A DNA stretch of 64,000 nucleotides from Anaerolineae bacterium (GTDB taxonomy: Bacteria > Chloroflexota > Anaerolineae > CG2-30-64-16): NCBI GenBank assembly GCA_034432655.1, contig DAOUBP010000157.1:6874-70873 (forward strand), read 5' to 3'. Position numbers and translations under genes: made by a program. Below are positions 21,071 to 42,348 of this stretch, one piece after another. The notes beneath the pieces are model-generated. The model saw only the letters and a list, made by a program, of their open reading frames with translations, searched no databases and was not told where the DNA came from. Positions within the stretch are counted from its first letter, which is position 1. Every line of letters starts with the position of its first letter.

Positions 21071-21220
21071 CCAAAACGCTCCACCGGCTGATATCGCACC
21101 CCTGCGTATGCCGAAGTGTTCAAAAGATTATTTTAGCGCAAGCAAACACAAAACACAAACGGCTTGCTGATTCATGCCTCTGATGGCATAATCGAGGCGA
21201 CAAAACGCTCCGAGGAGAAA

Positions 21221-24085
21221 GTGCGCAAACATCTTTGGGTTCTTGTGCTCTACGCCTTGCTCAGCCTGCTGCTCACCTGGCCCACGGCAGCGCACTTCAG
21301 CACCCACGTGCCCGGCGACGGCATTGACGATCCCTCTCTCGCGTGGAACCTTTGGTGGGTCAAATATGCCCTGGTGGATCGGCCGCAGAATCCGTTTAGC
21401 TGCACCTGGCAGTTCTGGCCGATTGGGATCAATCTGGCCTTCTATACGCTGACGGTTCTCAACGGGCTGCTCAGCGTGCCGTGGCAGGTGGTCTTCGGCG
21501 TGGTGCCCGCCTATAACATCCTGCTGCTGTCGTCGTTTGTCTTGAGCGGGCTCGGCGCCTATTTGCTGAGCCTGGATTTCCTGAAGCGTCATTCACACAG
21601 CGCGTCTGCCCACCGTCCTGCTCAGGATGTTTCCCCAGGCCATTCTGATGGCACAAAGGGCCCAGAGAAACAAGGGGAGCTGCGGGTGCTGGCCGCCGCG
21701 TTTGTCGGCGGCGCGTTCTATGCGTTTGCGTCGGCCAAGATGTTCTACGCAGCGTTGGGCCAGGGCAACATCGCCAGCTCACAGTGGATCCCTTTTGCGG
21801 CGCTGTACATCCTGCGGGCTACCCGGGCCGACGGCAAGCCGCGGGAAGCGTGGCTGGCAGCGCTTTTCCTGATCCTCCAGGCCTACGCGGAGATGACCTA
21901 TGCGTCGTTCCTGGTGGTATTTGCGGCCCTGTGCGTGTTGCGTACTGCGTACAGCGTATTGCGTACGAAATACAGAATACGAAGTGCGCAGTACGCAGTA
22001 CAGAATACGGAATACACGGTACGCAATCCGCAATCCGCAATCCCCAATCCCCAATCCATCATCCTCCGCCTTGCGCTCTTCGCCCTGATCTTCGCCGTGG
22101 GGATCGCGCCGATCCTGGCCAACATGCTGCCCGACCTGCGGGCCGAGGGCGATTTCTTCACCTCCGGGGGCGGGTTTGCCGACATCTTTTCGGCCGATCT
22201 GGCGGGCTATCTGGTGCCCACGCAGCTCCATCCGGTGTTGGGCGGCCTGGTGCGGCAGTGGTCGAACAATGCCATGCCGCAACCGGACGGCCGCCACTTC
22301 GCGGTGGATAAAGGACAGCAGATCTATTTGGGCTATGTCGCGCTCGCCCTGGCGGGGGTGGGGGGTTGGCACGGCCGGCGCCGCGGCGGGACATGGTTCT
22401 GGGCCGCGGCGGCCGCGCTTTTCTTCCTGCTTACCCTGGGGCCCTCTTTGCGTATCGCCGGCCAGGATACCGGTATCCCCTTGCCTTTTCGGATTATGGA
22501 ACAATTGCCGTTTTTCAAAGGGAACCGCTATCCCAGCCGCTACAGCGTCATGCTGTTGGTAAGCCTGGCCCCACTGGTCGCGGCGGGGGTGGATCGGGTG
22601 ATTGCCTGGGCGGACCGTAGACGGCAGGCGGCAGATGGCAGATGGCGGATAGTTTCCTCTTTTCCTTTTCTCCTTCTCCTGCTCCTCCTCTTCGAGCACC
22701 TCTCCGTGCCGCTGCCCGTCTTCGACCTGCGGGTGCCAGCACTTTACGACCGGGTCGCGGCCGAGCCGGGCGATTTCGCCTTGTTGGAGCTGCCCCTGGG
22801 CTGGCGCAACGGTGCGCGTGTCGCCGGCAAGCAAGACATCGTGATCATGCAGCAGCTGTGGTATCAAACCCGACATGGCAAACGGCTGCTGGGCGGCAAC
22901 ACCTCGCGCAACCCGGAGTATAAGTTCCAGTATTTCAGCGAGGACCCCACTCTGGCGCGGCTTATCGCCGTGATCAACGCCGCTGACCTGCCGCAACACA
23001 CTGCACTGCGCGCCGCCCTGGCTGCGCGGCCCGTCACCGAGGCCGAACGGGCCGCAGCGCGCGCCTGGGCAGCCCTGCTGGAGGTCCGCTACGTCATGGT
23101 ACACCGGGACAAACTGCCTGCCGAGGCCGAGGCGTTGGCGCGTGACCTTCTGCCGCTGGACCTGGTGGCCGAGGAGGGGAGCCTGGCCCTCTACCGGCTC
23201 AGCCGACCGCTGGCCCCACCGGTGCAATTCTTGCCCGGTAGTGACACGGGGCGGCGCGTCCTCGGCGAGGGCTGGAGCCCACCCCCGTTCGACCCCGGCC
23301 AGGCGCCGGGGCCTGTCTACGCGCAACGGAAGGAAGCCCGCCTGCTGTTGCCGTTGCCCACAGCAGAAGCAACGCTCTTGCTGTCCGGCCAGGCGCTGAC
23401 CGCCGGGCAGACCGTGACCCTGATCGTCAACGGACACCGGATCGGTACGCAACCGTGGCCGCCAGAGCCCACAGCTCTGGCGTTCACCGTGCCGGCCGAC
23501 CCGACACGTCCGCCCTTGAGCGATGTGCGCTTACGCTTCGCCCGCGTCGCACCCCAGGCCGGGTTCGCCGGTGAACGCCGTGCCGTCGGGGTGCTCATCC
23601 GCAGCGCAGGCCAGGAAACAGGCGATTTCGCGCACATCTACATCGCCGGCCAGGACAGGTCACCTAACCGCCGCGGCTATAACCTGGTGGCCTTCGACCC
23701 GGGCCAGGGCCAGGTGGTGGCCGCGGCCGCCTTTGACACCCATGCCGATCCCGCCGCCGGCGCTGCGCTGGCCCGGTGGGTGGCAGCGCTGCCCGCAGGG
23801 CTGACGGTGGCGGGCGCCGTGCGCGATGAGGCCGCGATGAACCTTACCGAGGAGGCGGTTACAGCCTTGCGCAGCCTGGGGGTGATAAACGACTTGCGCG
23901 GCCATTTCCGCTGGGGCCATGCCTTCCTGGGCCAAAAGGGCGCCGCAGCCGGCACCGCGGTCGAGGCCCTGGACGGCCTCCGGCCTGCCCAGATACAGGT
24001 CGCGCCGGCGCTCAGCGCGACCGCTGCGGCCGTGACCCTGACGCAGATCGAGATCATCCCCAGCACCACGCGAATCGTCCAGTAA
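21221..24085 (+). CDS. Large polytopic membrane protein with C-terminal ILEI/FAM3-like domain (putative glycosyltransferase-associated); carries an in-frame heptad-repeat insertion
   Basis: More than 10 TM segments. PGDGIDDPSLAWNLWW N-terminal motif. C-terminal ...YIAGQDRSPNRRGYNLVAFDPGQGQVV... Start at GTG 21221 after GAGGAG. Confidence 0.55.
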   Translation: MRKHLWVLVLYALLSLLLTWPTAAHFSTHVPGDGIDDPSLAWNLWWVKYALVDRPQNPFSCTWQFWPIGINLAFYTLTVLNGLLSVPWQVVFGVVPAYNILLLSSFVLSGLGAYLLSLDFLKRHSHSASAHRPAQDVSPGHSDGTKGPEKQGELRVLAAAFVGGAFYAFASAKMFYAALGQGNIASSQWIPFAALYILRATRADGKPREAWLAALFLILQAYAEMTYASFLVVFAALCVLRTAYSVLRTKYRIRSAQYAVQNTEYTVRNPQSAIPNPQSIILRLALFALIFAVGIAPILANMLPDLRAEGDFFTSGGGFADIFSADLAGYLVPTQLHPVLGGLVRQWSNNAMPQPDGRHFAVDKGQQIYLGYVALALAGVGGWHGRRRGGTWFWAAAAALFFLLTLGPSLRIAGQDTGIPLPFRIMEQLPFFKGNRYPSRYSVMLLVSLAPLVAAGVDRVIAWADRRRQAADGRWRIVSSFPFLLLLLLLFEHLSVPLPVFDLRVPALYDRVAAEPGDFALLELPLGWRNGARVAGKQDIVIMQQLWYQTRHGKRLLGGNTSRNPEYKFQYFSEDPTLARLIAVINAADLPQHTALRAALAARPVTEAERAAARAWAALLEVRYVMVHRDKLPAEAEALARDLLPLDLVAEEGSLALYRLSRPLAPPVQFLPGSDTGRRVLGEGWSPPPFDPGQAPGPVYAQRKEARLLLPLPTAEATLLLSGQALTAGQTVTLIVNGHRIGTQPWPPEPTALAFTVPADPTRPPLSDVRLRFARVAPQAGFAGERRAVGVLIRSAGQETGDFAHIYIAGQDRSPNRRGYNLVAFDPGQGQVVAAAAFDTHADPAAGAALARWVAALPAGLTVAGAVRDEAAMNLTEEAVTALRSLGVINDLRGHFRWGHAFLGQKGAAAGTAVEALDGLRPAQIQVAPALSATAAAVTLTQIEIIPSTTRIVQ
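21931..22058 (+). repeat. Heptad tandem repeats (TGCGTAC, TACGCAG, CGCAATC, CCCAATC) inside CDS 21221..24085
   Basis: Encodes LRTAYSVLRTKYRIRSAQYAVQNTEYTVRNPQSAIPNPQSII in frame. Confidence 0.75.
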
Positions 24086-24140: not shown

Positions 24141-24788
24141 CTACCAGGGCGATACCGCTGACTCAATCGCCGGGGTCGGCGTGGGCACGACGACCCGCTC
24201 GGGACCGGATGTTTCCGGGGCTGCCGATACGGGAGGCGCGCTCCAGCCAGTGGAACCGACGGCTGGGCCTGGCGTGGCGACAACAGCCGGGGGCGCCGAC
24301 GCAGCGGCCCCTCTGGTTGTGAGGACCTGTCCCACGCGGATGACGTCCGAGCGCAAGCCGTTCCACCGCTTGAGACTGGTCACGCTCACGCCGCAGCGCC
24401 GGGCGATTTTCGCCAGGGTATCGCCCGCCCGTACCGTATAGTACAGGGGACACCCTGCGTTCCCGGGGCTGCTGGCCGCACTCACCGGCACGGCCAAGGC
24501 AGCGCCAGCCGGCATGACAAGCCGCTGGCCGGGGTAGATAATGGCGTCCAAGCGCAACCCGTTGGCCTGCGCCAGCTGAACTGTGGAGACACCACAACGC
24601 CCGGCGATTGCGGACAGGGTGTCGCCGGCACGCACCACGTAATACGGGATACAGCCGCCGGCGCGATTGATTGTCGGGCCGACGGCGCCAGGTGGGGTCG
24701 CTCTAGCCACCGACGGCAATCCGAAGGAGGCTAAGCCCGCCACGATGAGAAACGCCAACACGCCCGGCAGAGGAGAACGGTGGCTCAT
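24141..24788 (-). CDS. LysM domain-containing secreted protein (3 LysM repeats)
   Basis: YVVRAGDTLSAIAGRCGVS and YTVRAGDTLAKIARRCGVS LysM repeats. Signal peptide from MSHRSPLP. Confidence 0.8.
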   Translation of the reverse strand: MSHRSPLPGVLAFLIVAGLASFGLPSVARATPPGAVGPTINRAGGCIPYYVVRAGDTLSAIAGRCGVSTVQLAQANGLRLDAIIYPGQRLVMPAGAALAVPVSAASSPGNAGCPLYYTVRAGDTLAKIARRCGVSVTSLKRWNGLRSDVIRVGQVLTTRGAAASAPPAVVATPGPAVGSTGWSAPPVSAAPETSGPERVVVPTPTPAIESAVSPW

Positions 24789-24909
24789 GGACTTGTCCTC
24801 CTTTGAAGATGACGTTCGCCGCCCATGTGCAGGGTCTTGTAGGTGCATTCCGTCATCTAAAATAACTATATCACATTTCAATTCAGATTACAATAGCATT
24901 TATTTGAAA

Positions 24910-27900
24910 TTGCAAAGGCAAAATCATGAGAGGCTGTGGCGCATCGGCATCTGGCTCCTGATGGCAGTGCTGGTCTGGTTGCCGTCCACCGGCCAGGCAG
25001 CCGAGGAGCTCGCCTCCCTGTGGACGACCTTCACTGTGGAAGATGGCCTGCGCTCGGGGAATATCCTGTCCATCCTGGTGGCGCAAGACGGCACGCTTTG
25101 GTTCGGGACCGATGCCGGGGCGGGGCACTATGACGGGAGCTGGCGATGGCTGACTGAGGCAGATCGTCTGCCGGCAGGCAGAGTGCACGCCATGGCACAA
25201 ACGGCAGACGGGGCGCTGTGGTTTGCGACCAGCGCAGGGCTGGCCAGGCTGACGCCCGATGCCCCTTGTTGCACCGTATGGACAACGGCTCTCGGGCTGC
25301 CGTCGGACGACGTTCTCAGCCTGGTCGCTGCCTCTTACCCGGCAACCGACAATAAACGTCCGGGGGTTTGGGTCGGCACGGCCGGAGGTCTGGCTTACGT
25401 AGATCCACAACAGGTGACGGTTGAACGCGAGGTGCCGCCTGCAGGCATCTCAGCATTGGCGCTGGGCAGCGACGGCGTGCTGTTGGCGGGCGTCCGGGGC
25501 CGCGGTGTGTGGCAGCGCAGCCCCGCTGGCCGTTGGCAAGAACCGGAAGACACCGGGCTGTTCACAGGGGATATCTACGCGCTGTTGCCGGAGGCAGACG
25601 GCACCCTCTGGGCCGGGACGACAAACGGCCTGTTGCTGCGCCGGCCGGGCGCTCCGTGGGAGCGTTTTCCCCTGACTGAGGGCAATCGGGTCCTGCCGGT
25701 CTTCGCCCTCGTACGGGATCCCCATGGCGGATTGTGGGCAGCCACCGATCAAGGGATCTATTATGACCCGGACGCCAGGGCCGACGGCCTGCCCGTAACC
25801 CACATCCGCGCCGGCCAGGGCAGCCTGGTGAACGACTACGTACGCGCGTTGGCCCTCGACCGCGATAACGCCCTCTGGTTAGGCACCATCGGCGGGGTGA
25901 ACCGCTACACGGGTCTGATCTGGCACGTGATAACCGATGAACCCTTGTCTGGCCAGCGGATCAACGCCGTGTTGACCGACCATGCCGGCCGCGTTTGGAT
26001 CGCCACCGAGAACAACGGCCTGGTGCTGCGTGACCGCACGCGCTGGCGCCACATCACGGCCCCCGAAAGCCTGCCCGACAACCGTGCGGTAACCCTGTTC
26101 GAAGACGATACCGGCCGGGTATGGGTTGCCACCGGCACGGCGGTCGGCCGGCTGGCCGAAAACAATGGCTCGTGGCGCTTCGAGCCGCTGGATACCCGCG
26201 GCCTGATCGGCCTGCCCGTCTTCGCGTTCGCGCAAGATACCCGCGGCGGCCTGTGGCTGGGGGGCGAACAGGGAGCGGCGCGCTGGACAGCGCAGGAGGG
26301 CATCCAACGGGTCGTCGAACTGGAGGGCCAGCGTGTCAACGCGATCTATCAGGCGCAGGACGGCGTCCTGTGGTTCGGCACCCGAGGGGACGGCCTGATC
26401 CGCCGGGTCAACGGCCAGTGGCAGGCGCTGGCCGGCGCACCTGGCGGCGTGACGGTCAACGACGTGGTGGTCAACGGCATCGGCCAGACCGCTGATGGCA
26501 GCCTGTGGGTCGGCACGTATAACGACGGCCTGTGGCGGTTCCATGCTGGTCTGTGGGAACGCAACGACATGAACCTGGCCAGCCCCAAAATCCTGGCCCT
26601 GCACGCTGTGGAAGACGGCCTCTGGGTGGGCACCCGCCAGGGGCTGTCGCATTTTGACGGGCTCACCTGGCAAAGCTACCGGGGAGATGCGCTCCCGGGA
26701 TCCTGGGTAACTGCGTTGGCGGCGGAGAGGGCCGGCGCGGTCTGGATCGGCACCACGGCCGGCCTGGTGCAATACCGGCCCGAAAAAACCGCTCCCTGGG
26801 TGCAGATCGAAGCAGTGAACCTGGAAAAACCCAAGAACGGTTACCTTGCGCTCAGGGAGGACAGGTTGCGCAGCATACTCCTCCGCGCGGGCGACCTGGC
26901 CACGCGTCCCGGCGACCTGGTGTACCTGACGCAAATCGAAGGGCTCGAAAACGCCCCCCGCGTCCATACCACGCCCCAGATTGCCGCCTATAGCAGCCTG
27001 GCCCTGGCGCCGGGCACCTACGTGCTGCGAGTGATGGCCCGCGATGCCGCCTTCAACTATTCCCGGCCGGCCGAACTGAGCATTACGGTGCCGCGCATGG
27101 TGGTCTTGCCCGGCGGGCACAAGGTGCGCGCCGTCCTGTTCTATCCGCTGCTGACAGCCGGTGCGTTGATCCTGACAGGCCTCGGTATCACCAGCGGCAT
27201 CGGCCTGCGCGCCCGCGCCCGGGCTCGTCGGCTGACGGCAGAGAAAGCACAGCGACAGCGCGAGGCGCTGGCACGTGGCTTCAACCCTTACATCTCGGGC
27301 GAGCCGATCCGCGAACCGGACATGTTCTTCGGCCGCGAAGCGTTGTTACAGCGCGTCTTCAACGCCCTTCATCAAAACAGCATCATGATCCACGGCGAAC
27401 GGCGCATGGGCAAGACCACCCTGCTCTATCAGCTGGCCGACCTGCTGCGCCAGACCGACGATCCCGAGTGGATGTTCGTGCCGGTGTATGTTGATCTGGA
27501 GGGCACGCCGGAGCAACGTTTCTTCCATCAGTTGATAGAGGCGATCTGGAGCGCCCTGCAGAGCTACCTGAAAGGGACGGCCCTCCCGCTACGCTTCCAG
27601 ACCGCAACGCCGGAAGCCTACAGCGATCGCGATTTTGCAGCCGACCTCCGGCTTGTGCTGGACAAGATGAAGGAGGCGGTTGCGCCGCGCACGCTGCGCG
27701 TGATCCTGCTGATGGATGAAATGGATGTCGTCAGCAGCTACAACACGCTGACACAACAACAGTTTCGCCGTATACTGATGAGCTCCCTGGCCACCCATCT
27801 GGGCGCTGTGGTGGCGGGGGTGCACATCAGCAAAGATTGGGACCGCCTGGAAAGTCCCTGGTACAACCTGTTCAACGAGGTCGCCCTGGAACCGTTCAGC

Positions 27901-28125
27901 CCTGAGGAAGCACGCGAACTGCTGACCGAGCCGGTGCGCGGCATCTACGAATGGGAACCGGAGGCCCTCGAAACCGTGATCCGTAGGGCAGGGGGCCGGC
28001 CGCATCGCCTCCAACAGTACGCCCTGGAGGCCGTCAACCGGATGCTGGCGGATGGCCGGCTGCGGATTACCCTGGCGGACGTGGAGGCGGCACACGAAAT
28101 CATCGAACGCTCGTACGGGCCCTGA
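24910..28125 (+). CDS. Membrane receptor: periplasmic two-component-regulator propeller (Reg_prop repeats) + Y_Y_Y domain, single TM, cytoplasmic STAND/AAA-like P-loop NTPase
   Basis: Repeated W(F/V)GT..GL..YDG propeller repeats. Y_Y_Y (PGTYVLRVMARDAAFNYSRP). TM AVLFYPLLTAGALILTGL. NTPase NPYISGEPI...FFGRE...HGERRMGKTTLLYQL. Start uncertain (TTG near 24910 or ATG 24961). Confidence 0.7.
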   Translation: MQRQNHERLWRIGIWLLMAVLVWLPSTGQAAEELASLWTTFTVEDGLRSGNILSILVAQDGTLWFGTDAGAGHYDGSWRWLTEADRLPAGRVHAMAQTADGALWFATSAGLARLTPDAPCCTVWTTALGLPSDDVLSLVAASYPATDNKRPGVWVGTAGGLAYVDPQQVTVEREVPPAGISALALGSDGVLLAGVRGRGVWQRSPAGRWQEPEDTGLFTGDIYALLPEADGTLWAGTTNGLLLRRPGAPWERFPLTEGNRVLPVFALVRDPHGGLWAATDQGIYYDPDARADGLPVTHIRAGQGSLVNDYVRALALDRDNALWLGTIGGVNRYTGLIWHVITDEPLSGQRINAVLTDHAGRVWIATENNGLVLRDRTRWRHITAPESLPDNRAVTLFEDDTGRVWVATGTAVGRLAENNGSWRFEPLDTRGLIGLPVFAFAQDTRGGLWLGGEQGAARWTAQEGIQRVVELEGQRVNAIYQAQDGVLWFGTRGDGLIRRVNGQWQALAGAPGGVTVNDVVVNGIGQTADGSLWVGTYNDGLWRFHAGLWERNDMNLASPKILALHAVEDGLWVGTRQGLSHFDGLTWQSYRGDALPGSWVTALAAERAGAVWIGTTAGLVQYRPEKTAPWVQIEAVNLEKPKNGYLALREDRLRSILLRAGDLATRPGDLVYLTQIEGLENAPRVHTTPQIAAYSSLALAPGTYVLRVMARDAAFNYSRPAELSITVPRMVVLPGGHKVRAVLFYPLLTAGALILTGLGITSGIGLRARARARRLTAEKAQRQREALARGFNPYISGEPIREPDMFFGREALLQRVFNALHQNSIMIHGERRMGKTTLLYQLADLLRQTDDPEWMFVPVYVDLEGTPEQRFFHQLIEAIWSALQSYLKGTALPLRFQTATPEAYSDRDFAADLRLVLDKMKEAVAPRTLRVILLMDEMDVVSSYNTLTQQQFRRILMSSLATHLGAVVAGVHISKDWDRLESPWYNLFNEVALEPFSPEEARELLTEPVRGIYEWEPEALETVIRRAGGRPHRLQQYALEAVNRMLADGRLRITLADVEAAHEIIERSYGP

Positions 28126-28151
28126 ATCTGCGAGAGAGCAAGAGGAGCACT

Positions 28152-29465
28152 GTGCGCAACCCTTATGTCACCGGGTCGTATGTCACCGGCAGCCAGCACT
28201 ACGGCCGGGAAGACCTGTTGGACTATCTGTTGAACGGCGACAGCCGTGCCTGCTGGGTGGTGGGCACCCGCCGGATCGGAAAAACCTCGTTACTGAGACA
28301 GTTGGAGCTGTTGGCCGGCGCCGGCAAGCGCCTGGTCCCGCTTTATTGGGACATGCAGGGGTGCAATTCCTTCGCCTGCCTGGGCCGTTATCTGGCCGAC
28401 GCCGTGCGTGATCGGGCCGCGCGGCTTGAGCCATTGGGGGTGACCGAGGCGTTGATGGAAGAAGAGGACCCCCTGGCTTTGCTGGTCAATCTGCGCCGGC
28501 TGGCCCAACGCGCCGGCCGCGAACTGTTGCTCCTGGGCGACGAAACCGAAGTGCTGGTCAACATCGCGGCCGCGGAGCCGGAGGCCATGCAACGGCTGCA
28601 CCGCCAGCTTACCGCCGGGGTCGGGCTGCGCGTCGTGATGGCCTCCACGCGCCAGATCTACCGGATGCACGACGTATGTCGTGACTGGCCCACCTCGCCC
28701 TTCCTGTCCGGTTTCGATATGTCCCTGACCCTGGGCAGCCTGGAACAGGAGGCGGCCGAGGCGTTGATCTTGCAAACGCAGTCCAACCGCCGGGTACGAG
28801 CCGCCCCCGAGACAGTGGAGGCCATCTCGCGCGCCACCAACAACCATCCCTTCCTGCTGCAGGTGTTGTGCTCCCGGTTGTTCGTCACCAGTGGCCGGCT
28901 GCGCAACTTGACCCCTGAAGACCTGCGGGTGGATCCCCTGCTGGCGGGCTTTTTCGAGCACGATTTCCGCCAGCTCACCAACGCCGACCGGAGGACGGTG
29001 CTGGCCGTGCACCGGGAGAAACTGGCCGATGAAGCGCAGCTCATGAAAGTGACCGGGGACAACCCGGTGGAGCTCAGCCTGCGTCTGCACAACCTGGAGG
29101 GGCTGGGCTACCTGCGCCGCGCCTACGGCCGGATCGAGATCGGCAACGATTTCCTGGCGAACTGGCTGGCTGCGGCCGACGACAGGCTGGACATGCTGCC
29201 CCTTGCGGAGACCTCAGAAACGGCAGCCCGCCGCGCGTTCGTGCGCCAGCAGCTCCAGGACCTCCCTTCGCTGGTCGCCCAGCTGAACGCCCGGCGTTCG
29301 CGCCTGGTCGAGCTGGAGCTGATCCGCGCGCAAGAGCTCGCCAACGTCTCGCCACAGGTGCTGGCGGAGATCGAACAGGTGGAAAACGAAATCGTCGCGC
29401 TGCGGAGCGCGCTGGATCGGCGAGAAGGCTCGCCAGCATCTTCAAAAGGAGTGTCTGCTTTATGA
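28152..29465 (+). CDS. Soluble STAND/AAA-like P-loop NTPase, paralog of the upstream receptor C-terminal domain, with C-terminal coiled coil
   Basis: NPYVTGS...YGREDLL...VVGTRRIGKTSLLRQL. GTG start after AGAGGAG. C-terminal heptad-rich helix. Confidence 0.7.
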   Translation: MRNPYVTGSYVTGSQHYGREDLLDYLLNGDSRACWVVGTRRIGKTSLLRQLELLAGAGKRLVPLYWDMQGCNSFACLGRYLADAVRDRAARLEPLGVTEALMEEEDPLALLVNLRRLAQRAGRELLLLGDETEVLVNIAAAEPEAMQRLHRQLTAGVGLRVVMASTRQIYRMHDVCRDWPTSPFLSGFDMSLTLGSLEQEAAEALILQTQSNRRVRAAPETVEAISRATNNHPFLLQVLCSRLFVTSGRLRNLTPEDLRVDPLLAGFFEHDFRQLTNADRRTVLAVHREKLADEAQLMKVTGDNPVELSLRLHNLEGLGYLRRAYGRIEIGNDFLANWLAAADDRLDMLPLAETSETAARRAFVRQQLQDLPSLVAQLNARRSRLVELELIRAQELANVSPQVLAEIEQVENEIVALRSALDRREGSPASSKGVSAL

Positions 29466-30601
29466 CGACAACAATTCCCCTGGTTGATCTGCAGGCGCAG
29501 TATGCTGCCATCCAGGACGAGATTGACGCAGCTATCCGGCGGGTGGTGCAAAGCGCTAACTTCATCATGGGGCCTGAAGTCCACAACTTCGAGGAAGCTT
29601 TTGCCCGCTTCGTCGGTTGTGCCGAGGCGGTAGGGGTCGCCTCGGGCACCGCGGCCCTGCACCTGGCGCTACTGGCCTGTGGCATTGGGCCGGGAGATGA
29701 GGTGATCACCACGCCTTTCACGTTCTACGCCACAGCTGAGGCCATCGTCCAGGCCGGGGCTACGCCTATCTTTGTGGACATTCGACCCGACACGTATAAT
29801 ATGGATCCGGAGAAACTGCCCGCGGCGATTACGCCGCGGACGCGAGCTATCATTCCGGTGCATCTGTTTGGCCAGCCCGCAGACATGGACCCGATCTTGG
29901 CCGTGGCGCGGCAGCACGGACTGTGGGTGATCGAAGACGCTGCCCAAGCTCATGCTGCAGACTATCGCGGCCGACGCTGTGGAAGCATCGGCGACCTGGC
30001 TTGCTTCAGCTTTTTCCCAAGCAAGAACCTGGGCTGCTATGGTGATGGCGGAATGGTGACCACCAACGACCCGACACTGGCAGCGCGCATACGGAGGCTG
30101 CGCGATCATGGCCGGGTCAGCAAATACGAACATGTCGAGCCAGGCTGGGGCTATCGGCTGGACGCCTTGCAGGCCGCGATTCTGGCCGCTAAACTGCCTC
30201 ATTTGGAACAGTGGACCGAACAACGACGCGCGGCAGCACGCCGTTATGCTGAACTTTTGCAAGACTCTGAAGTGATCTTACCGGTGGAACTGCCCGGCAA
30301 CCGACACGTTTATCACCTGTACGTGATCCGCACGCCGCGGCGCGATGAGCTGTATCAGCATCTGGCTGCGCAGGGGATCGGTGTGGGGATCCATTACCCG
30401 TTGCCGTTACATCTTCAACCTGTACATCGCAACATGGGCTGGGGGCCGGGCTCGTTTCCGGTGGCCGAGTTCGTCGCCAACGAAGTGCTCTCGCTGCCCC
30501 TCTACGCCGAGATCACCCCGGAACAGCAGGCCCGAGTAGCGAGTGCGCTCCTGGCGTTCACAAGTCAAGGTAACGGGCGGCGAGAAAAGCGAAAACCATG
30601 A
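29462..30601 (+). CDS. DegT/DnrJ/EryC1/StrS family PLP-dependent sugar aminotransferase
   Basis: Family-typical N-terminus (PLVDLQAQYAAIQDEIDAA) and PLP-Lys region FSFFPSKNLG. Confidence 0.9.
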   Translation: MTTTIPLVDLQAQYAAIQDEIDAAIRRVVQSANFIMGPEVHNFEEAFARFVGCAEAVGVASGTAALHLALLACGIGPGDEVITTPFTFYATAEAIVQAGATPIFVDIRPDTYNMDPEKLPAAITPRTRAIIPVHLFGQPADMDPILAVARQHGLWVIEDAAQAHAADYRGRRCGSIGDLACFSFFPSKNLGCYGDGGMVTTNDPTLAARIRRLRDHGRVSKYEHVEPGWGYRLDALQAAILAAKLPHLEQWTEQRRAAARRYAELLQDSEVILPVELPGNRHVYHLYVIRTPRRDELYQHLAAQGIGVGIHYPLPLHLQPVHRNMGWGPGSFPVAEFVANEVLSLPLYAEITPEQQARVASALLAFTSQGNGRREKRKP

Positions 30602-31680
30602 GCAAGCGCAGAACGACCGACTATGCGCGGCGCGAGACAGCGGATGTCCTTCCGGCTTTCCCGGCCAACGCCTTCCCCGGCGACCGGACGCACCGGCAAT
30701 CGGCGGACGGACCGAGAGTATCGGTCTTAGTGCCGGCGCATGACGAAGCAGGCAACGTCGCCGAACTGGTGGCCCGGGTCGGCCGGGCGTTCGCAGCGCG
30801 CGACTTGACCGCCGGCCAGGGTGAGCTGGTTGTCGTCAACGATGGCTCCACCGACGGGACGGGAGAACTGCTCGAACAGCTCAAGCCTGACTACCCGTTT
30901 CTGCGCGTCATCCACCATCGGCGCAATTTGGGTTTGACGGCCGCGTTGCGCACCGGCTTTCGGGCTGTGCGCGGCGATCTGATCCTGTTTCTGCCGGCCG
31001 ATCTTGAATCGGACCCCGAGACTGATATCCCCTTGCTGCTGGACAAGCTGGCCGAAGGGTATGACATCGTGGCTGGCTGGCGCCAGGGCCGCAAAGAAGG
31101 CAAGGTCTTCGCCTCCGGGATTTATAACCTGGTATCGCGCTGGCTGTTCGGGTTGCAGCTACACGACATGAACTGGATCAAAGGCTTCCGTCGTGAGGTG
31201 ATCGAGTCTTTGCCGCCGCTGCGCTCCGACTGGCACCGTTTTATCCTGCACATTGCTGCCCACCAGGGCTATCGCATCGGCGAGGTGGCAACTCCCTGGC
31301 ACAAGCGCCGCGCCGGCCGTTCGAAATTCGGGCTCAGCCGCATCCCTATTTCACTCCTCGATGTATTGGTGGTGTGGTTTTTGCTCACCTTCAGCCGCGC
31401 GCCCATGCGCTTTTTCGGCGGGCTAGGGCTCGCCTCGCTGACTTTGAGCGGCCTGACCTTCTTGTGGCTGTTGTGGCTGTGGCTGGCCTATGAAACCCAA
31501 CGCCGGCCTGTTTTCTGGGCAGCCAGCGGCCTGGCCATCGCCGGCCTGCTGCTCTTCCTGATCGGGTTTGTCGCCGAGTTGGTGGTAAGCCAGGCTGACC
31601 AGCTGGCCGAGATTGAGCGATCCCTGCGCGTTTCTCCGTCTTCTCTTCAGGCCCCCGGAGAGGATCGGGAGGGCGCATGA
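30598..31680 (+). CDS. GT2 polyprenyl-phosphate glycosyltransferase (ArnC/GtrB/DPM-synthase-like) with C-terminal TM helices
   Basis: VLVPAHDEAGNV, VVVNDGSTDGT and DAD motifs, plus 2 C-terminal TM helices. Confidence 0.85.
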   Translation: MSKRRTTDYARRETADVLPAFPANAFPGDRTHRQSADGPRVSVLVPAHDEAGNVAELVARVGRAFAARDLTAGQGELVVVNDGSTDGTGELLEQLKPDYPFLRVIHHRRNLGLTAALRTGFRAVRGDLILFLPADLESDPETDIPLLLDKLAEGYDIVAGWRQGRKEGKVFASGIYNLVSRWLFGLQLHDMNWIKGFRREVIESLPPLRSDWHRFILHIAAHQGYRIGEVATPWHKRRAGRSKFGLSRIPISLLDVLVVWFLLTFSRAPMRFFGGLGLASLTLSGLTFLWLLWLWLAYETQRRPVFWAASGLAIAGLLLFLIGFVAELVVSQADQLAEIERSLRVSPSSLQAPGEDREGA

Positions 31681-32957
31681 AGATCGGCGTCCTCACTCAC
31701 AACTATCCCCGTTTCCCCGGCGATTTCTCCGGCCGCTTTGTCGAAGCCCTAAGCGAGGAGCTAGCCGCGCAGGGGCACCAGGTCACCGTATTGGCTCCCT
31801 GGGACCCGGCCTATGCGCGCCGGCCTGACGATCACCGCGTGGAAATACTTCTCTACCGCTACGCACCACGGGCCGACTGGCATCGCCTGGGCTACATGCG
31901 CACCATGAAGGCCGATCTGGCGATGCGCAAGTTGACCTATTTGCTGGCCCCGGGGCTGTTCCTGGCCGGAGCGCGGGCGGTGTTGCACTGGACTGCAGCA
32001 GCCCGCCCCGATGTGCTGCATGCCCACTGGGTGCTTCCCAACGGCTTTTTGGCTGCGCTGGCCGCCCGGCGCTATCACGTCCCGTTGGTGGTCTCGATCC
32101 CCGGTTCGGATGCGACCGTGGCGACGGCAAGCCCGGCGTTCCGCTGGATGGCCCGTTTTGCGTTCGCCACTGCCGGGCTGATCACCGCCAACTCCACTGC
32201 GCTACGAGACGTGGCAGTGAAACAATTGGGCGCTGATCCGGCCAGGTTTGACCTGATTGCCTACGGCGTGGCACCCGACGCACTGCGCCCGGACCCTACA
32301 AACACCGCCGCATTGCGGGCACGCCTGGGCATCCCGGCCAACGCCTTTGTCGCGCTGGCCGTGGGCCGAATGGTGCATAAGAAGGGGTTCGATCACCTCT
32401 TGCGCGCGGCAGCGATCGTGCAAGGCACCAGCGAAGACCAGAAACAGCCGAGCGCCGGTGCGACGTCCCCCGAGCCCAACCCTGCCACCCTTGCGCCCCT
32501 GCACCTGGTCATGATCGGCGAGGGGGACTTGTGGGCCGAATGGCAGGCCTTGGGCGAAAGGCTGGGGCTAAATGACCGCGTGCACTGGGTAGGCAACGTC
32601 CCTACCGACCGTATCGGCGTCTTCTACAACATGGCCGACGTGCTGGTGATGCCGGCGGTCACACTGCCTGCCGATGGGCTGAACGTGACGGTGCTGGATG
32701 CTATGTCATGCAGCAAGCCGGTAATCGGCACTGCGGCCGCGGGGAACGAGCTGGCAATTCGCGACGGGGTCAACGGTTTTCTGTTGCCAGAAGGAGACGA
32801 TCTTGCTCTGGCGAACGCCCTGGTGAAGCTGATGCATGATCCTGAGCTGTGTGCCAAGATGGGCCGCGCCGGCCGACAGCTCATCGAGACGGAACTGGGC
32901 TGGCCGGTCCTGGCACGCCGCTACCTGGCCCACTTCGAACAACTCAAGAGGTCCTGA
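31677..32957 (+). CDS. Glycosyltransferase family 1 (GT4-like)
   Basis: GT-B fold N-terminus KIGVLTHNYPRFPG. C-terminal EG-type region. Confidence 0.8.
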   Translation: MKIGVLTHNYPRFPGDFSGRFVEALSEELAAQGHQVTVLAPWDPAYARRPDDHRVEILLYRYAPRADWHRLGYMRTMKADLAMRKLTYLLAPGLFLAGARAVLHWTAAARPDVLHAHWVLPNGFLAALAARRYHVPLVVSIPGSDATVATASPAFRWMARFAFATAGLITANSTALRDVAVKQLGADPARFDLIAYGVAPDALRPDPTNTAALRARLGIPANAFVALAVGRMVHKKGFDHLLRAAAIVQGTSEDQKQPSAGATSPEPNPATLAPLHLVMIGEGDLWAEWQALGERLGLNDRVHWVGNVPTDRIGVFYNMADVLVMPAVTLPADGLNVTVLDAMSCSKPVIGTAAAGNELAIRDGVNGFLLPEGDDLALANALVKLMHDPELCAKMGRAGRQLIETELGWPVLARRYLAHFEQLKRS

Positions 32958-34012
32958 TGACCGAATTACTCCGTTTCGGCCTGATCGGCTGTGGCCGTGT
33001 GGCACCCCGCCACGCCGACTCGCTGAGTTCACTGCCCGGCGTCAAGCTGGTTGCCGTGGCTGACATTAGGGCAAGCCGCGCCGAACGCTTTGGCGCGCAA
33101 TACGGCGCGACCGCGTACACCGATTATCGGGCGCTCCTGGACCGGTCCGACGTTGACGTGGTCAACATTTGCACACCCAGCGGTACCCACGCGCCAATTG
33201 CGCTGGACGCGCTTTCCGCCGGAAAGCATGTCCTGGTGGAGAAGCCAATCGCCTTGTCGTTGGCCGACGCCAACCGTATGATCGCAGCGGCCAAACAGGC
33301 AGACCGCAGGCTGGGCGTGGTGTTGCAAAACCGTTACAACCCGCCTATGCAGGACCTCAAACGCGCAGTGGATGAAGGCCGTTTGGGCCGGTTGTTTCTG
33401 GGCAATGCCACCGTGCGCTGGTATCGCACCCAGGAGTACTACGAGGACGACTGGCACGGCACCTGGGCCATGGACGGTGGCGCGTTGATGAATCAATCCA
33501 TTCATCACATTGATGCGTTGCAGTGGCTGATGGGGCGGCCGGAGAGCGTGTTCGCCTACACTGCGACCCTGGCCCATCGCATGGAAGCAGAAGATGTCGG
33601 CGTGGCCGTGATCCGCTTTTCCGAGGGCGCCCTGGCCACGGTAGAAGGTTCCACGGTAACCTACCCGGAAAACCTGGAGGGATCGGTGGCGGTCTTCGGC
33701 GAGCGGGGCTCCGCCAAAGTGGGCGGCACCGCGCTCAACCGCAAGGTCTTGTGGAAAATCGCCGGGGAGCTAGAGCGCGAACGCGAGCTGCTGACCCGTG
33801 AGCAGGTGGACCCGCCCTCGGTGTACGGTGCCAGCCACAAGGCCGTGATCGCTGACATGGCTGCTGCTGTGCACGAGGGACGTGATCCGCAGACTAATGG
33901 TTGGGAGGCGCGCAAGTCACTGGCCCTGGTGCTGGCCATGTACGAGTCGGCGCGCACCGGCCAGCCGATCACCATCGGCAACGGCATCTGGGACGAAGAG
34001 CCGGCAAGCTGA
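32957..34012 (+). CDS. Gfo/Idh/MocA family oxidoreductase (UDP-sugar dehydrogenase WbpB-like)
   Basis: LRFGLIGCGRVAPRHA Rossmann. EKP and NRY motifs. Confidence 0.85.
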   Translation: MTELLRFGLIGCGRVAPRHADSLSSLPGVKLVAVADIRASRAERFGAQYGATAYTDYRALLDRSDVDVVNICTPSGTHAPIALDALSAGKHVLVEKPIALSLADANRMIAAAKQADRRLGVVLQNRYNPPMQDLKRAVDEGRLGRLFLGNATVRWYRTQEYYEDDWHGTWAMDGGALMNQSIHHIDALQWLMGRPESVFAYTATLAHRMEAEDVGVAVIRFSEGALATVEGSTVTYPENLEGSVAVFGERGSAKVGGTALNRKVLWKIAGELERERELLTREQVDPPSVYGASHKAVIADMAAAVHEGRDPQTNGWEARKSLALVLAMYESARTGQPITIGNGIWDEEPAS

Positions 34013-34114
34013 ACCAGGCATTCATGCCAACGCGTTCATTGCAATAGGAGAGGAGACCGAGTACAACATCCCTACTCCCGGAGAAGCGCCGAAGCACAAA
34101 GGCCCGGCAGGACT

Positions 34115-36272: not shown

Positions 36273-36397
36273 GATCCATAAAGCGTCTGTTTGGGTATCT
36301 CGATGGTCAACGTAAACCGATAATAACGCAAGGCCTATTCGTTGGCAAATGGAGATTTCAAACCCAGTAACAGCATTCACCTTCCCACGCGCTCATC

Positions 36398-36418: not shown

Positions 36419-36457
36419 CTTTCTCACGCGCCACATCTATGATATGATTTTATTATT

Positions 36458-37399
36458 ATGCGGAACCGATGGACACGGTTGATCAAAGGCCTCGTTCTCG
36501 TTGCGGCACTAGGTTTCCTGGCAGCCCTGGTGCGCAGCCAATGGTCAGCCCTCCATAACTACAACTGGCAGTTGGCACCGGGATGGGTGCTGACGGCCCT
36601 GATCGGCTTCGAGTTGACCTGGTTTTTCGAGGCAGCCACCTGGCGAGCGATTATCGTCAATATCGGCGGATCTCTGACTTACCGACAGGTTTGGCCCATC
36701 TGGTTTCTCAGTAACATCGTGCGCTACATCCCAGGCAATGTCTGGCAATTCCTCGGCATGGCCGAGCTGGCCGCAGAGCATGGCGTGCCTCGCCTGGTCA
36801 CGCTGACCGGCATCGTGTTGCATCAGGTGATCTCGATCACGGTAGCCATCGTACTGGCTGCAGCCTATTTCGCCGCGACCGGACAGGGCACCTGGTTCGA
36901 TCAGGTGCGGCCCGTGTTGTGGCTGACACCTCTGGGCCTGCTCTTGCTGCAACCGCGCCTCCTCGAACGGGTTTTGAACTGGGCCCTGGCGCGCCTGGGC
37001 CGACCTCCGATCCGCGTTACACTCAGTTGGGGCCAGATCGTGCTGCTCTGTCTGCGCTACACGATTGTCTGGCTCGGCTTGGGTCTGAGCTATGCAGCCC
37101 TGGTACGCGCGCTGACCCCTTTTCCTGGCGCTATCATCCCCCATCTCGCCGCAGCGTGGACAGCAGCCTACGTGATCGGCTTCCTCAGCTTGCTCACGCC
37201 ATCGGGCCTGGGGGTGCGTGAAGGGGTGATGATCTTGCTGCTGAATCCCATCCTGCCGCCGCCGTTGCCGGCCGTGGTCGCTATCATCGCCCGACTCTGG
37301 ATGGTGGTGGGTGAACTGGCCGGGGCTGGCCTGGCCCTGTTAATGCGGCCCGCCGGCCGCAAAGTGCCGGCGCGTCGACAAGCTATGCACCATGAGTGA
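36458..37399 (+). CDS. Lysylphosphatidylglycerol-synthase-TM-region/flippase-like membrane protein (UPF0104)
   Basis: 8 TM segments; IVRYIPGNVWQ motif. Confidence 0.65.
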   Translation: MRNRWTRLIKGLVLVAALGFLAALVRSQWSALHNYNWQLAPGWVLTALIGFELTWFFEAATWRAIIVNIGGSLTYRQVWPIWFLSNIVRYIPGNVWQFLGMAELAAEHGVPRLVTLTGIVLHQVISITVAIVLAAAYFAATGQGTWFDQVRPVLWLTPLGLLLLQPRLLERVLNWALARLGRPPIRVTLSWGQIVLLCLRYTIVWLGLGLSYAALVRALTPFPGAIIPHLAAAWTAAYVIGFLSLLTPSGLGVREGVMILLLNPILPPPLPAVVAIIARLWMVVGELAGAGLALLMRPAGRKVPARRQAMHHE

Positions 37400-37402
37400 C
37401 CT

Positions 37403-39994: not shown

Positions 39995-40061
39995 CAGGGA
40001 TAGGAGGCACAGAGACACGGAGACGAAGGGTCAAGGGAAACGCGGAGAACAGCAGGCCAGC

Positions 40062-42333: not shown

Positions 42334-42348
42334 ATGCGGAGGTTTCTC

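What the first reader, a model, noticed from the sequence alone, without database searches (positions are those of the whole stretch)
24910..29465. Unusual signalling module: Reg_prop/Y_Y_Y periplasmic propeller receptor fused to a STAND-like NTPase, plus a paralogous soluble NTPase
Two-component-regulator-propeller and Y_Y_Y domains normally sit on hybrid histidine kinases. Here the single-TM receptor instead ends in a P-loop NTPase with the NPYxxGxPI...FFGRE...GxRRxGKT(T/S)LLxQL signature (nSTAND/AAA_16-like). The next gene, GTG-started 27 nt downstream, encodes a second NTPase with the same signature plus a C-terminal coiled coil. A divergent LysM protein lies upstream. No kinase, cyclase or DNA-binding output domain is present. 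This could be a kinase-independent transmembrane signalling or envelope-surveillance system, possibly carbohydrate sensing as for Bacteroides Reg_prop sensors, or a STAND-type immune sensor with an extracellular input.
Basis: partly seen in the sequence, partly recalled or inferred. Interest (0 to 1): 0.7.

Follow-up and report, generated by a model that had tools for sequence, protein, structure and literature searches.

The report
Membrane sugar-sensor fused to paired ATPases
A cell-surface receptor of the type that normally drives a histidine kinase is instead joined to an ATP-driven switch and is followed by a related soluble switch protein with a probable DNA-binding domain, a gene pair kept throughout a whole class of filamentous Chloroflexota bacteria next to cell-envelope sugar-building genes, which suggests an undescribed way of signalling across the membrane without a kinase.

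Summary
ORF1 (24910-28125) has a signal peptide, a Reg_prop double-propeller ectodomain, one TM helix and a C-terminal P-loop NTPase. ORF2 (28152-29465) is a true paralogue of that NTPase (hhalign 99.3%).

Two corrections:
- By structure the NTPases sit closest to ORC/Cdc6 and archaeal ATPase_2 AAA+ proteins. They show STAND-like motifs but are not typical STANDs.
- ORF2 does carry a likely DNA-binding output, a MarR/ArsR-like winged helix, followed by a helical hairpin.

The pair is not sporadic. In 60 of 63 evaluable Anaerolineae/Caldilineae genomes the receptor-NTPase (A) lies directly upstream of the partner (B). It usually lies beside an ILEI-domain membrane protein (GT-C assignment is inferred), often beside a divergent LysM gene, and beside DegT/GT2 or DUF2079/PMT_2 genes.

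The A-type NTPase is mostly a receptor output. In 112 of 150 cluster representatives a TM helix lies just upstream of it. Other inputs are REC or TPR. Rare versions carry a C-terminal histidine kinase. B followed A in all four non-Reg_prop gene contexts examined.

Best reading: a kinase-independent envelope or glycan sensor that signals through an ATP-dependent A-B AAA+ pair. An immune role is unlikely. No description was found in the searchable literature.

The parts
24910..28125 (+). ORF1 (protein A), 1071 aa: receptor fused to an NTPase. The start is taken as TTG 24910. One gene caller used ATG 24961 instead.
   Evidence: ORF list. Pfam. Relatives start MNANLRWWIGIWLL six residues before the WRIGIW motif, which supports a start near 24910. 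The Logan gene call is 1054 aa.
24910..24999 (+). Signal-peptide-like N-terminus: a basic n-region, the hydrophobic stretch IGIWLLMAVLVWL, and STGQA followed by AEE.
   Evidence: Read from the sequence. Cleavage is inferred, not tested.
25000..26900 (+). Extracytoplasmic Reg_prop beta-propeller region with about 12-14 blades, the size of two propellers.
   Evidence: Reg_prop E 1.4e-52. Blade motif count. phmmer against PDB hits only the Bacteroides HTCS sensor domains 4a2l, 3v9f, 3va6 and 3ott, E 2e-27 to 8e-23.
26923..27090 (+). Y_Y_Y-like Ig domain next to the membrane.
   Evidence: Y_Y_Y scores 17.4 bits, below the 26.6 cutoff, at E 0.004 over profile positions 5-64 of 65. Homologues P0044, P0046, P0078 and P0083 carry PF07495.
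27133..27207 (+). Single transmembrane helix, continued by a basic juxtamembrane helix (RARARARRLTAEKAQRQREALARG).
   Evidence: Hydropathy scan. AF2 predicts one continuous helix over model residues 2-45.
27283..28122 (+). A-type NTPase: AAA+ core plus helical lid. Motifs: NPY/FFGRE (27283-27339), Walker A GERRMGKTT (27394-27420), Walker B LLMDEMD (27706-27726), candidate Arg finger in WDRLESPW (27838-27861), and GRPHR lid motif (27991-28017).
28138..28151 (+). Shine-Dalgarno GGAG and spacer before the GTG start of ORF2.
   Evidence: Read from the sequence.
28152..29465 (+). ORF2 (protein B), 437 aa: paralogous NTPase (Walker A 28263-28289, Walker B 28527-28550, NNHPFLLQ lid motif 28836-28862), MarR/ArsR-like winged helix (28965-29168) and helical hairpin or coiled coil (29268-29414).
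24141..24788 (-). Divergently transcribed secreted protein with two LysM domains, 215 aa. It recurs at this position in many related loci.
   Evidence: LysM E 7.7e-33. A minus-strand LysM gene lies between the ILEI gene and A in about 27 loci at E<1e-3, in 17 of 60 at the stricter cut, and in L091 and L093.
21164..24085 (+). 973-aa polytopic membrane protein with a C-terminal ILEI domain (like the POMGnT1 stem). It is the most constant neighbour of the pair, including the REC variants.
   Evidence: ILEI E 6.8e-16. PDB 5ggj POMGnT1, E 1.4e-4. Found upstream of A in 34 of 60 genome loci, also in L003, L086 and L089. The GT-C fold is my inference and was not tested.
29462..34012 (+). Genes with overlapping stop and start codons, likely co-transcribed: DegT aminotransferase (29462-30601; its ATG overlaps the ORF2 stop), GT2 (30598-31680), GT4 (31677-32957), GFO/IDH/MocA oxidoreductase (to 34012).
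   Evidence: Pfam. Overlapping stop/start codons. DegT+GT2 follow B in roughly 35-40 of 80 genome loci. They are absent in the closest relatives, where DUF2079 follows B directly.
36458..42191 (+). Further envelope genes of the same neighbourhood: LPG_synthase_TM, DUF2079 membrane protein, and a PMT_2 (GT-C) mannosyltransferase-like protein.
   Evidence: Pfam. DUF2079 and PMT_2 lie directly after B in L091-L093.

Best explanation
This is a kinase-independent transmembrane signalling pair, here called A (ORF1) and B (ORF2).

A is a type-I membrane receptor. Its extracytoplasmic double Reg_prop propeller plus Ig-like domain has the same sensor architecture that binds oligosaccharides in Bacteroides hybrid two-component systems. 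It most likely monitors a glycan or another envelope component of the unusual Chloroflexota cell envelope.

The signal passes through one TM helix and a long juxtamembrane helix to an ORC/Cdc6-like AAA+ NTPase with STAND-type motifs. That NTPase acts as a nucleotide-dependent switch.

Its obligate partner B is a paralogous NTPase that carries a MarR/ArsR-like winged helix and a helical hairpin. I propose that ligand-controlled, ATP-dependent association of A with B sets how much B is free or active. B then regulates the adjacent envelope-glycosylation genes. A may supply its conserved Arg (R979, WDRLESPW) to B's ATP site, because B lacks an Arg at that position.

Shown:
- the domain architecture;
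- the paralogy of A and B;
- intact Walker motifs in both families;
- the strict A-B gene linkage;
- the recurrent envelope-gene neighbourhood;
- the modular exchange of A's input domain.

Inferred:
- the ligand class;
- physical A-B interaction;
- the trans Arg finger;
- DNA binding by B and its targets.
For: - **Architecture:**
- **Fold of both NTPases:**
- **Paralogy:**
- **Linkage:** A lies directly upstream of B in 60 of 63 evaluable species-level genomes of Anaerolineales and Caldilineales (171 genomes encode B). Identity to the window's ORF2 falls to 35%.
- **B follows A whatever A's input is:** REC (L003, L086), REC-A-PAS-HK (L089/L090), and TPR-TM (L087/L088).
- **A is mainly a receptor output:** 112 of the 150 best cluster representatives have a TM helix just before the NTPase.
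- **P0045 and P0046:** a REC-fused and a Reg_prop-TM-fused protein whose NTPase domains look near-identical by eye (not computed), consistent with input swapping.
- **Walker A and B** are intact in 54-55 of 60 A and 71 of 72 B orthologues.
- **Arg finger:** A has a near-invariant Arg at the Box VII position, and B has a gap there.
- **Neighbourhood:** ILEI membrane protein, LysM, DegT, GT2, GT4, GFO, DUF2079 and PMT_2, with translationally overlapping genes. The ILEI gene is kept even with REC-type A.
Against: - No experiment or complex prediction shows that A and B interact.
- Winged helices in STAND and ORC proteins often mediate protein contacts rather than DNA binding. B's recognition helix is not notably basic.
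- The glycosylation neighbours are not universal. One Caldilineaceae group has methyltransferases, a class A PBP and a GT2 instead.
- The DegT-GT2 block is absent even in relatives 83-88% identical.
- Synteny within one class may partly reflect descent rather than function.
- No conserved palindromic operator was found. Only a conserved AT-rich block was seen in the LysM-A intergenic region.
- The ligand is unknown.
Confidence: 0.5

Rival explanations
1. The same A-B ATPase pair acts post-translationally and not on DNA. It would be a membrane-anchored AAA+/STAND-like assembly switch or scaffold that directly controls the neighbouring membrane glycosylation proteins (ILEI protein, DUF2079, PMT_2). 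This would be loosely analogous to the way the transmembrane P-loop protein Wzc governs polysaccharide assembly. On this view B's winged helix is the regulatory WHD of a NOD module, and its hairpin is a protein-interaction domain.
For: - The most constant neighbours are membrane proteins rather than promoters or regulators.
- The NBD-helical-WH order in B equals a STAND NOD module.
- B's recognition helix is weakly basic.
- In L087 the C-terminus of B is a kinase-lobe-like region, not a WH, so the output is variable.
Against: - The profile match of B to the MarR-family regulator HosA spans the whole wHTH and the following helix.
- No contact with the glycosyltransferases has been shown.
Confidence: 0.25
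2. A STAND-type immune or abortive-infection sensor with an extracellular input.
For: - STAND-like motifs and an nSTAND1 hit just above threshold.
- One distant relative, P0283, combines SIR2, nSTAND1 and this NTPase, a defence-like architecture.
- Weak PADLOC P-loop matches.
Against: - The gene order is stable across a whole class, with housekeeping neighbours (Lon, FolC-like, PBP, glycosyltransferases).
- No effector domain is present.
- The best PADLOC hit is 18 bits over about 80 residues.
- The structural neighbours are ORC/Cdc6 and ATPase_2 proteins rather than Avs or NLR proteins.
Confidence: 0.05
3. An ORC/Cdc6-like DNA-handling system tethered to the membrane. It might couple the chromosome or replication to the envelope, or act as a MuB/TnsC-like target selector. 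It would not be a signalling system.
Against: - A lacks any WH or DNA-binding domain and is fused to a classical sensor ectodomain.
- A's input is exchangeable with REC, TPR and HK modules, which is typical of signal transduction.
- No transposase or replication genes are adjacent.
Confidence: 0.07
4. A decayed or split hybrid two-component system whose kinase was lost or is encoded elsewhere.
For: - The ectodomain is of HTCS type.
- Rare relatives carry REC and HisKA/HATPase_c domains.
Against: - About 56 orthologues share the same complete Reg_prop-TM-NTPase architecture with intact Walker motifs and no kinase.
- The ORFs are uninterrupted in the window.
- In the HK-fused variant the kinase is added after the NTPase. 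It does not replace the NTPase, and B is still present.
Confidence: 0.03

Closest known systems
Bacteroides thetaiotaomicron hybrid two-component system (HTCS) sensors, e.g. BT4663 (PDB 4a2l/4a2m), 3v9f, 3va6/3ott
   Same: The ectodomain plan and membrane topology are the same: signal or TM segment, Reg_prop propeller region of two-propeller size, Y_Y_Y-type Ig domain, one TM helix. These are the only solved sequence relatives of the ectodomain (E 2e-27). From the literature as I recall it, they bind oligosaccharides as dimers.
   Different: The cytoplasmic part differs. ORF1 has no HisKA, HATPase_c, REC or AraC domain. An AAA+ NTPase takes their place, and a second NTPase gene follows.
ORC/Cdc6 initiators and the archaeal ATPase_2 family (PF01637; SSO1545 2fna, PABY2304 2qen)
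   Same: - The AAA+ core is followed by a lid carrying a sensor-2-like GRPHR motif.
- B keeps a C-terminal winged helix, as Orc1/Cdc6 and SSO1545 do.
- Paralogues acting in pairs occur here too (Orc1/Cdc6 heterodimer, 2qby).
   Different: - A is membrane-anchored, lacks the WH domain and is driven by an extracytoplasmic sensor.
- There is no replication context.
- Sequence similarity to solved members is undetectable by phmmer.
STAND NTPases (MalT, AfsR, NLR/Avs; Pfam nSTAND1)
   Same: - An hhGRExE-type motif (FFGRE/HYGRE) lies before Walker A.
- A GxP-like motif sits in the helical domain (GRP, NHP).
- B has the NBD-helical-WH order.
- The nSTAND1 hit is above threshold for A.
- The concept matches: a nucleotide switch linking a sensor to an output. 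MalT is a STAND transcription factor controlled from a membrane transporter.
   Different: - The sensor is N-terminal and extracellular, not a C-terminal TPR, WD40 or LRR array.
- A ends after the lid.
- There is no effector domain.
NtrC-type response regulators (REC-AAA+ bacterial enhancer-binding proteins)
   Same: This is an analogy for the REC-fused relatives. A receiver domain controls the oligomeric or ATPase state of an AAA+ module that ends in DNA-linked output.
   Different: - It is a different AAA+ clade.
- There is no sigma-54 interaction motif.
- The HTH is on a separate paralogous protein (B).
- No membership is claimed.
Wzc / BY-kinase polysaccharide co-polymerases
   Same: This is a functional analogy only. 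It is a transmembrane protein with an extracytoplasmic domain and a cytoplasmic P-loop domain, encoded in envelope-polysaccharide gene clusters (my own knowledge).
   Different: It is an unrelated P-loop family (MinD/SIMIBI-like tyrosine kinase). Homology was not tested, and none is expected.

Membership tests
Hybrid two-component system (HTCS) sensor kinases | Periplasmic Reg_prop double propeller plus Y_Y_Y domain between two membrane segments | tested here: met
   Reg_prop 169 bits. PDB 4a2l E 1.9e-27. Signal segment and one TM helix. Y_Y_Y is only sub-threshold at 17.4 bits.
Hybrid two-component system (HTCS) sensor kinases | Cytoplasmic HisKA + HATPase_c kinase core, REC and AraC-type HTH | tested here: not met
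   No such Pfam or NCBIfam hits in ORF1 or ORF2. They are absent from the ~56 orthologues carrying the ectodomain.
STAND NTPases | P-loop NTPase with an hhGRExE motif before Walker A, Walker B acidic residues, and GxP in the helical domain | tested here: met
   A: FFGRE, GERRMGKTT, LLMDEMD, GGRPHR. B: HYGRE, GTRRIGKTS, LLLGDETE, NNHPF.
STAND NTPases | Match to a curated STAND profile above threshold | tested here: inconclusive
   A: nSTAND1 36.9 bits against 27.1, but ATPase_2 scores higher (38.5); NACHT 17.3 and nSTAND6 18.1 are below threshold. B: only AAA_16 at 21.3 bits, below threshold.
STAND NTPases | NBD-helical-winged-helix module followed by a repeat sensor (TPR, WD40 or LRR) or an effector domain | tested here: not met
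   A ends after the lid helices. B has a WH followed by only a helical hairpin. There are no repeats or effector domains.
STAND NTPases | Closest structural neighbours are STAND proteins | tested here: not met
   [not shown]
ORC/Cdc6 - ATPase_2 (PF01637) AAA+ group | AAA+ alpha/beta core plus helical lid with a sensor-2 Arg; profile or structural match | tested here: met
   [not shown]
ORC/Cdc6 - ATPase_2 (PF01637) AAA+ group | C-terminal winged-helix domain | tested here: inconclusive
   Present in B. Absent from A.
ORC/Cdc6 - ATPase_2 (PF01637) AAA+ group | Origin or DNA binding and a role in replication | not testable with these tools
   No replication genes are adjacent. Biochemistry is needed.
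Antiviral STAND / known defence systems | Match to a defence-system model, an effector domain, and patchy distribution in defence islands | tested here: not met
   Best PADLOC hits are 18-20 bits on the P-loop region only. There is no effector domain. The locus is conserved in 60 of 63 genomes with housekeeping neighbours.
MarR/ArsR-type winged-helix DNA-binding domain (ORF2 residues 272-339) | wHTH fold and sequence-profile similarity | tested here: inconclusive
   [not shown]
MarR/ArsR-type winged-helix DNA-binding domain (ORF2 residues 272-339) | Sequence-specific DNA binding as a dimer | not testable with these tools
   EMSA or DAP-seq is needed. Only a conserved AT-rich block was seen upstream of A.

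The most novel reading that the evidence does not exclude
The A/B pair may define a distinct and widespread class of bacterial transmembrane signalling. Extracytoplasmic sensors (Reg_prop, TPR and others) or receiver domains would drive an ORC/Cdc6-STAND-like NTPase. That NTPase would signal by nucleotide-dependent heteromerisation with a paralogous partner that carries the output, instead of by phosphotransfer. In Anaerolineae this would be the core regulator of assembly of their atypical glycan-rich envelope.
Probability: 0.35. Interest if true: 0.85.

Novelty: new variant of a known kind. Interest (0 to 1): 0.68.

Why it matters
Recognised routes for signalling across the bacterial membrane are:
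- histidine kinases;
- chemoreceptors;
- Ser/Thr kinases;
- anti-sigma factors;
- cyclases and c-di-GMP enzymes;
- membrane-bound one-component regulators.

A receptor whose output is an AAA+/STAND-type nucleotide switch paired with a paralogous partner carrying a wHTH would add a mechanism to that list.

The NTPase family is not rare. It has 370 clusters at 50% identity with E<1e-30. In three quarters of the 150 best cluster representatives a TM helix lies just upstream of the NTPase. It can be wired to REC and HK modules.

In Chloroflexota it offers a handle on how these filamentous bacteria build and monitor an envelope that lacks the classical diderm pathways.

It also gives a natural example of an ORC/Cdc6-like ATPase recruited to signal transduction. 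That bears on how STAND/NLR-type switches evolved from AAA+ initiators.

Tried and rejected
- **NCBIfam:** nothing reached a curated cutoff for ORF1 or ORF2.
- **PADLOC:** only weak P-loop matches.
- **Literature:** searches for nSTAND1, STAND, Reg_prop, Y_Y_Y, Pfam accessions and 'transmembrane STAND' found no description of this architecture. Targeted reading of the 2020 eLife conflict-systems paper and the 2026 Nature STAND survey found none either. This is absence of evidence within a partial library.
- **Promoter and terminator scan:** gave nothing usable around the pair.
- **Footprinting of the LysM-A intergenic region:** three close relatives share a conserved AT-rich block, but there is no clear palindrome.
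- **LysM mapping error:** my first tblastn map used a LysM query in the wrong frame, so LysM seemed unique to the window. This was corrected with the proper 215-aa protein.
- **DegT undercount:** the count (17) is too low because of crude ORF calling. The tblastn map gives roughly 35-40 of 80.
- **Cultured hosts:** cluster-member look-ups to find a cultured host returned only unnamed or MAG entries.
- **Structure search:** the afdb50 library was unavailable.
- **phmmer of the A NTPase against PDB:** no hit.
- **Rejected readings:**
  - immune STAND;
  - decayed HTCS;
  - replication-type ORC function.

Full report
**1. What is in the sequence**

The flagged interval holds two same-strand ORFs.

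ORF1 (24910-28125, 1071 aa from a TTG) has these parts, in order:
- A signal-peptide-like N-terminus (basic residues, IGIWLLMAVLVWL, STGQA followed by AEE).
- About 12 clear Reg_prop blades. Pfam Reg_prop scores E 1.4e-52.
- A membrane-proximal Ig-like segment that matches Y_Y_Y only below threshold (17.4 bits, E 0.004).
- One internal TM helix at residues 742-766.
- A cytoplasmic P-loop NTPase. It scores above Pfam gathering thresholds for ATPase_2 (38.5 bits), nSTAND1 (36.9) and AAA_16 (35.4).

The ectodomain's only sequence relatives among solved structures are the periplasmic sensor domains of Bacteroides hybrid two-component systems (4a2l, 3v9f, 3va6/3ott; E 2e-27 to 8e-23).

Close relatives begin MNANLRWWIGIWLL. 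This supports a start near 24910 rather than the internal ATG at 24961 used by one gene caller.

ORF2 (28152-29465, 437 aa) starts at a GTG preceded by GGAG. Its N-terminus MRNPY is conserved in every homologue. Its stop overlaps the ATG of a DegT aminotransferase gene. The following GT2, GT4 and GFO/IDH/MocA genes also overlap end to start, which suggests one transcription unit.

A two-LysM secreted protein is encoded divergently at 24141-24788.

**2. The two NTPases**

BLASTP links ORF1's C-terminus and ORF2 only over 75 residues. Profile-profile comparison of the two families gives 99.3% probability (E 9e-21) over 233 columns. The aligned span includes the shared W-x-x-SP(W/F) motif and the GRPHRLQQ / NNHPFLLQ lid motif. 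They are true paralogues.

AF2 models are confident for the ORF1 cytoplasmic part (pLDDT 91.6) and fair for ORF2 (78.8).

- STAND proteins score lower for ORF1's NTPase (MalT 14.9, ZAR1 14.7).
- ORF2 sits nearest SSO1545 and PABY2304 (ATPase_2 family) and ORC/Cdc6.

The proteins do carry STAND-type sequence motifs: FFGRE/HYGRE before Walker A, and a GxP-like lid motif. 'STAND-like' is therefore defensible at motif level. The fold neighbours, the lack of a winged helix in ORF1, and the lack of a repeat sensor all argue against filing them as typical STANDs.

Walker A and B are conserved in both families. ORF1's family has a near-invariant Arg (R979) at the Box VII position. ORF2's family has a gap at that position in the hhalign alignment. 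This asymmetry is compatible with a trans-acting Arg finger from A to B. That is an inference.

**3. ORF2 has a probable DNA-binding domain**

The evidence says otherwise:
- ORF2 residues ~272-339 fold as helix-helix-helix-beta-hairpin.
- A profile of the ORF2 family hits one PDB sequence, the MarR-family regulator HosA (E 3.8e-4). The match runs across the whole wHTH with the typical LT..q..vL...Le..G.lrR pattern.
- A homologue shows sub-threshold MarR_2.
- Some JGI annotations call family members Lrp or NarL-type regulators.

Whether the domain binds DNA is untested. Winged helices in STAND and ORC proteins can also be purely regulatory.

The C-terminus is a conserved helical hairpin at residues 371-425.

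**4. Conservation of the pair**

The ORF2 family has more than 576 members in the 90%-clustered database, almost all 425-445 aa long.

A scan of one genome per species found relatives in 171 genomes. The 80 best loci, which are the ones listed, are almost all labelled Chloroflexota (Anaerolineales, Caldilineales). One (L037) is labelled Bacteroidales and two only 'bacterium'. Identity to the window's ORF2 falls to 35%.

I mapped the window's proteins onto these 80 loci:
- Of 63 evaluable loci, 60 have the A-type NTPase gene directly upstream of B.
- In 56 of these the Reg_prop ectodomain is in the same ORF.
- The three exceptions are one frameshifted long-read assembly (L039), one 1.7-kb insertion (L041), and one genuine absence (L035).
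- Across the same loci the ectodomain is 24-61% identical and the NTPase 53-80%. This is as expected for a sensor joined to a conserved transducer.

**5. Neighbourhood**

- The most constant neighbour is a ~950-aa polytopic membrane protein with a C-terminal ILEI domain. It lies upstream in 34 of 60 loci. Its ILEI domain resembles the POMGnT1 stem (PDB 5ggj, E 1.4e-4).
- A minus-strand LysM gene lies between the ILEI gene and A in many Anaerolineales and Caldilineales loci.
- Downstream, B is followed in one set of loci by DegT and GT2, with or without GT4 and GFO (roughly 35-40 of 80 loci).
- In the closest relatives (83-88% identity), DUF2079, FG-GAP and PMT_2 follow B directly.
- In the window both blocks are present in series.
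- One Caldilineaceae group instead has methyltransferases, a class A PBP and a GT2.

The theme is extracytoplasmic glycosylation and cell-wall assembly, but no single enzyme is universal.

**6. The NTPase is a modular signalling domain**

An exhaustive HMMER search with ORF1's NTPase found 370 cluster representatives at E<1e-30 and 1404 at E<1e-10.

Among the best 150:
- 48 have the Reg_prop ectodomain.
- 55 have another N-terminal region of more than 350 aa (TPR or coiled coil), followed by a TM helix.
- 112 in total have a TM helix immediately before the NTPase.
- 5 are REC-fused.
- 2 carry a C-terminal HisKA/HATPase_c (P0372, and P0377 which is REC-NTPase-PAS-HK).
- 1 is SIR2-nSTAND1-NTPase.

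P0045 (REC-fused) and P0046 (Reg_prop-Y_Y_Y-TM-fused) have NTPase domains that look near-identical by eye; I did not compute the identity. This is consistent with recent input swapping.

The partner B follows A in every non-Reg_prop context I examined:
- REC-A (L003, L086).
- REC-A-PAS-HK (L089/L090).
- TPR-TM-A (L087/L088), where B's C-terminus is a weak kinase-lobe-like region instead of wH plus hairpin.

The REC variants still sit beside the ILEI gene, together with a cNMP-binding protein.

**7. Interpretation**

The shown facts fit a two-protein, kinase-independent signalling pathway:
- an input domain (here an HTCS-type glycan or envelope sensor);
- a membrane-tethered AAA+ switch (A);
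- an obligate paralogous partner (B) that carries the variable output (here wHTH plus hairpin).

I propose ATP-dependent A-B heteromerisation, set by ligand-induced changes in the receptor. This would control B's availability to regulate envelope-glycosylation genes (confidence about 0.5).

The main rival keeps the A-B switch but has it act directly on the neighbouring membrane glycosyltransferase-like proteins (0.25).

The other readings are disfavoured by the conserved gene order, the lack of effectors, the intact architecture in ~56 orthologues and the signalling-type domain swaps:
- immune STAND;
- membrane-tethered ORC-like DNA function;
- decayed HTCS.

**8. Novelty**

I found no description of this architecture in the searchable literature or in the curated NCBIfam and PADLOC libraries.

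The parts are of known kinds: the HTCS sensor, the AAA+/STAND switch and the wHTH. The combination, and the conserved A/B pairing as a receptor output, appears undescribed. I therefore rate it a new variant of a known kind. There is a substantial chance (about 0.35) that it represents a separate class of transmembrane signalling.

Noticed in passing
window 10112-10149, 12029-12128, 21939-22057, 42287-42331, 43771-43836, 49267-49319, 52954-53475, 54064-54133: There are many short tandem arrays of 7-8 nt units (TGCGTAC, CGCAATC/CGCAATA, GAATCAGC and others). Two arrays lie inside coding sequences. One is in the ILEI membrane-protein gene, giving the peptide YSVLRTKYRIRSAQYAVQNTEYTVRNPQS. The other is in the N-terminus of the GT2 gene at 43749, giving GVRNTQYGVRNTQYGVRNT. 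They recall cyanobacterial STRR heptamer repeats (my own knowledge).
   Followed up: no
window 29462-36457 compared with L091-L093: Relatives 83-88% identical have DUF2079, FG-GAP and PMT_2 directly after ORF2. The window has an extra block of about 7 kb between ORF2 and DUF2079: DegT, GT2, GT4, GFO, a second DegT on the minus strand, and LPG_synthase_TM. This looks like a block insertion or deletion within the envelope cluster.
   Followed up: partly
window 24926-24928: The ATG that aligns with the start codon of ORF1 orthologues (MNANLRW..., MNTSFKW...) is out of frame by one base in the window. ORF1 must therefore start at TTG 24910 or 24904. This could be a real start-codon shift or a 1-nt assembly error.
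   Followed up: partly
window 24789-24909; L091 2280-2502; L093 2543-2773: The divergent LysM/ORF1 intergenic region contains an AT-rich block conserved among three relatives (about TATATCAyATTTCA..A.AT.ACAATAsCATTTATT), while the flanks diverge. It is probably promoter or operator sequence. No clear palindrome was seen.
   Followed up: partly
L089 and L090 (6001-8376 in L089); L003; L086: In another lineage that also carries the ILEI gene, the A protein is REC-NTPase or REC-NTPase-PAS-HisKA-HATPase_c. It is always accompanied by a ~255-283 aa cNMP-binding protein with a coiled-coil tail and by partner B. Two REC-Roadblock/LC7 proteins lie upstream.
   Followed up: partly
L087 8181-9728: The partner B of a TPR-TM-NTPase receptor has a C-terminal region that weakly resembles the C-lobe of a Ser/Thr protein kinase (Pkinase E 0.005, sub-threshold). 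It takes the place of the winged helix and hairpin. This suggests that B's C-terminus is the exchangeable output.
   Followed up: partly
P0283 (1173 aa, metagenomic): One distant relative combines SIR2_2, a full nSTAND1 NTPase and then this A-type NTPase in a single protein. This is a defence-like architecture, so the module may have been recruited to conflict systems in some lineages.
   Followed up: no
window 21164-24085: The ILEI-domain protein has a conserved N-terminal motif HVPGDGIDDPSLAWNLWW after its first TM helix, shared by orthologues. It has no Pfam match in its ~800-aa membrane part. It may be an unclassified GT-C-like glycosyltransferase with a POMGnT1-stem-like carbohydrate-binding domain. 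This was not tested by structure prediction.
   Followed up: partly
window 42292-43653: A 453-aa protein has a CHU_C (type IX secretion signal) domain hit (E 1.3e-7). This is unexpected in a Chloroflexota genome.
   Followed up: no
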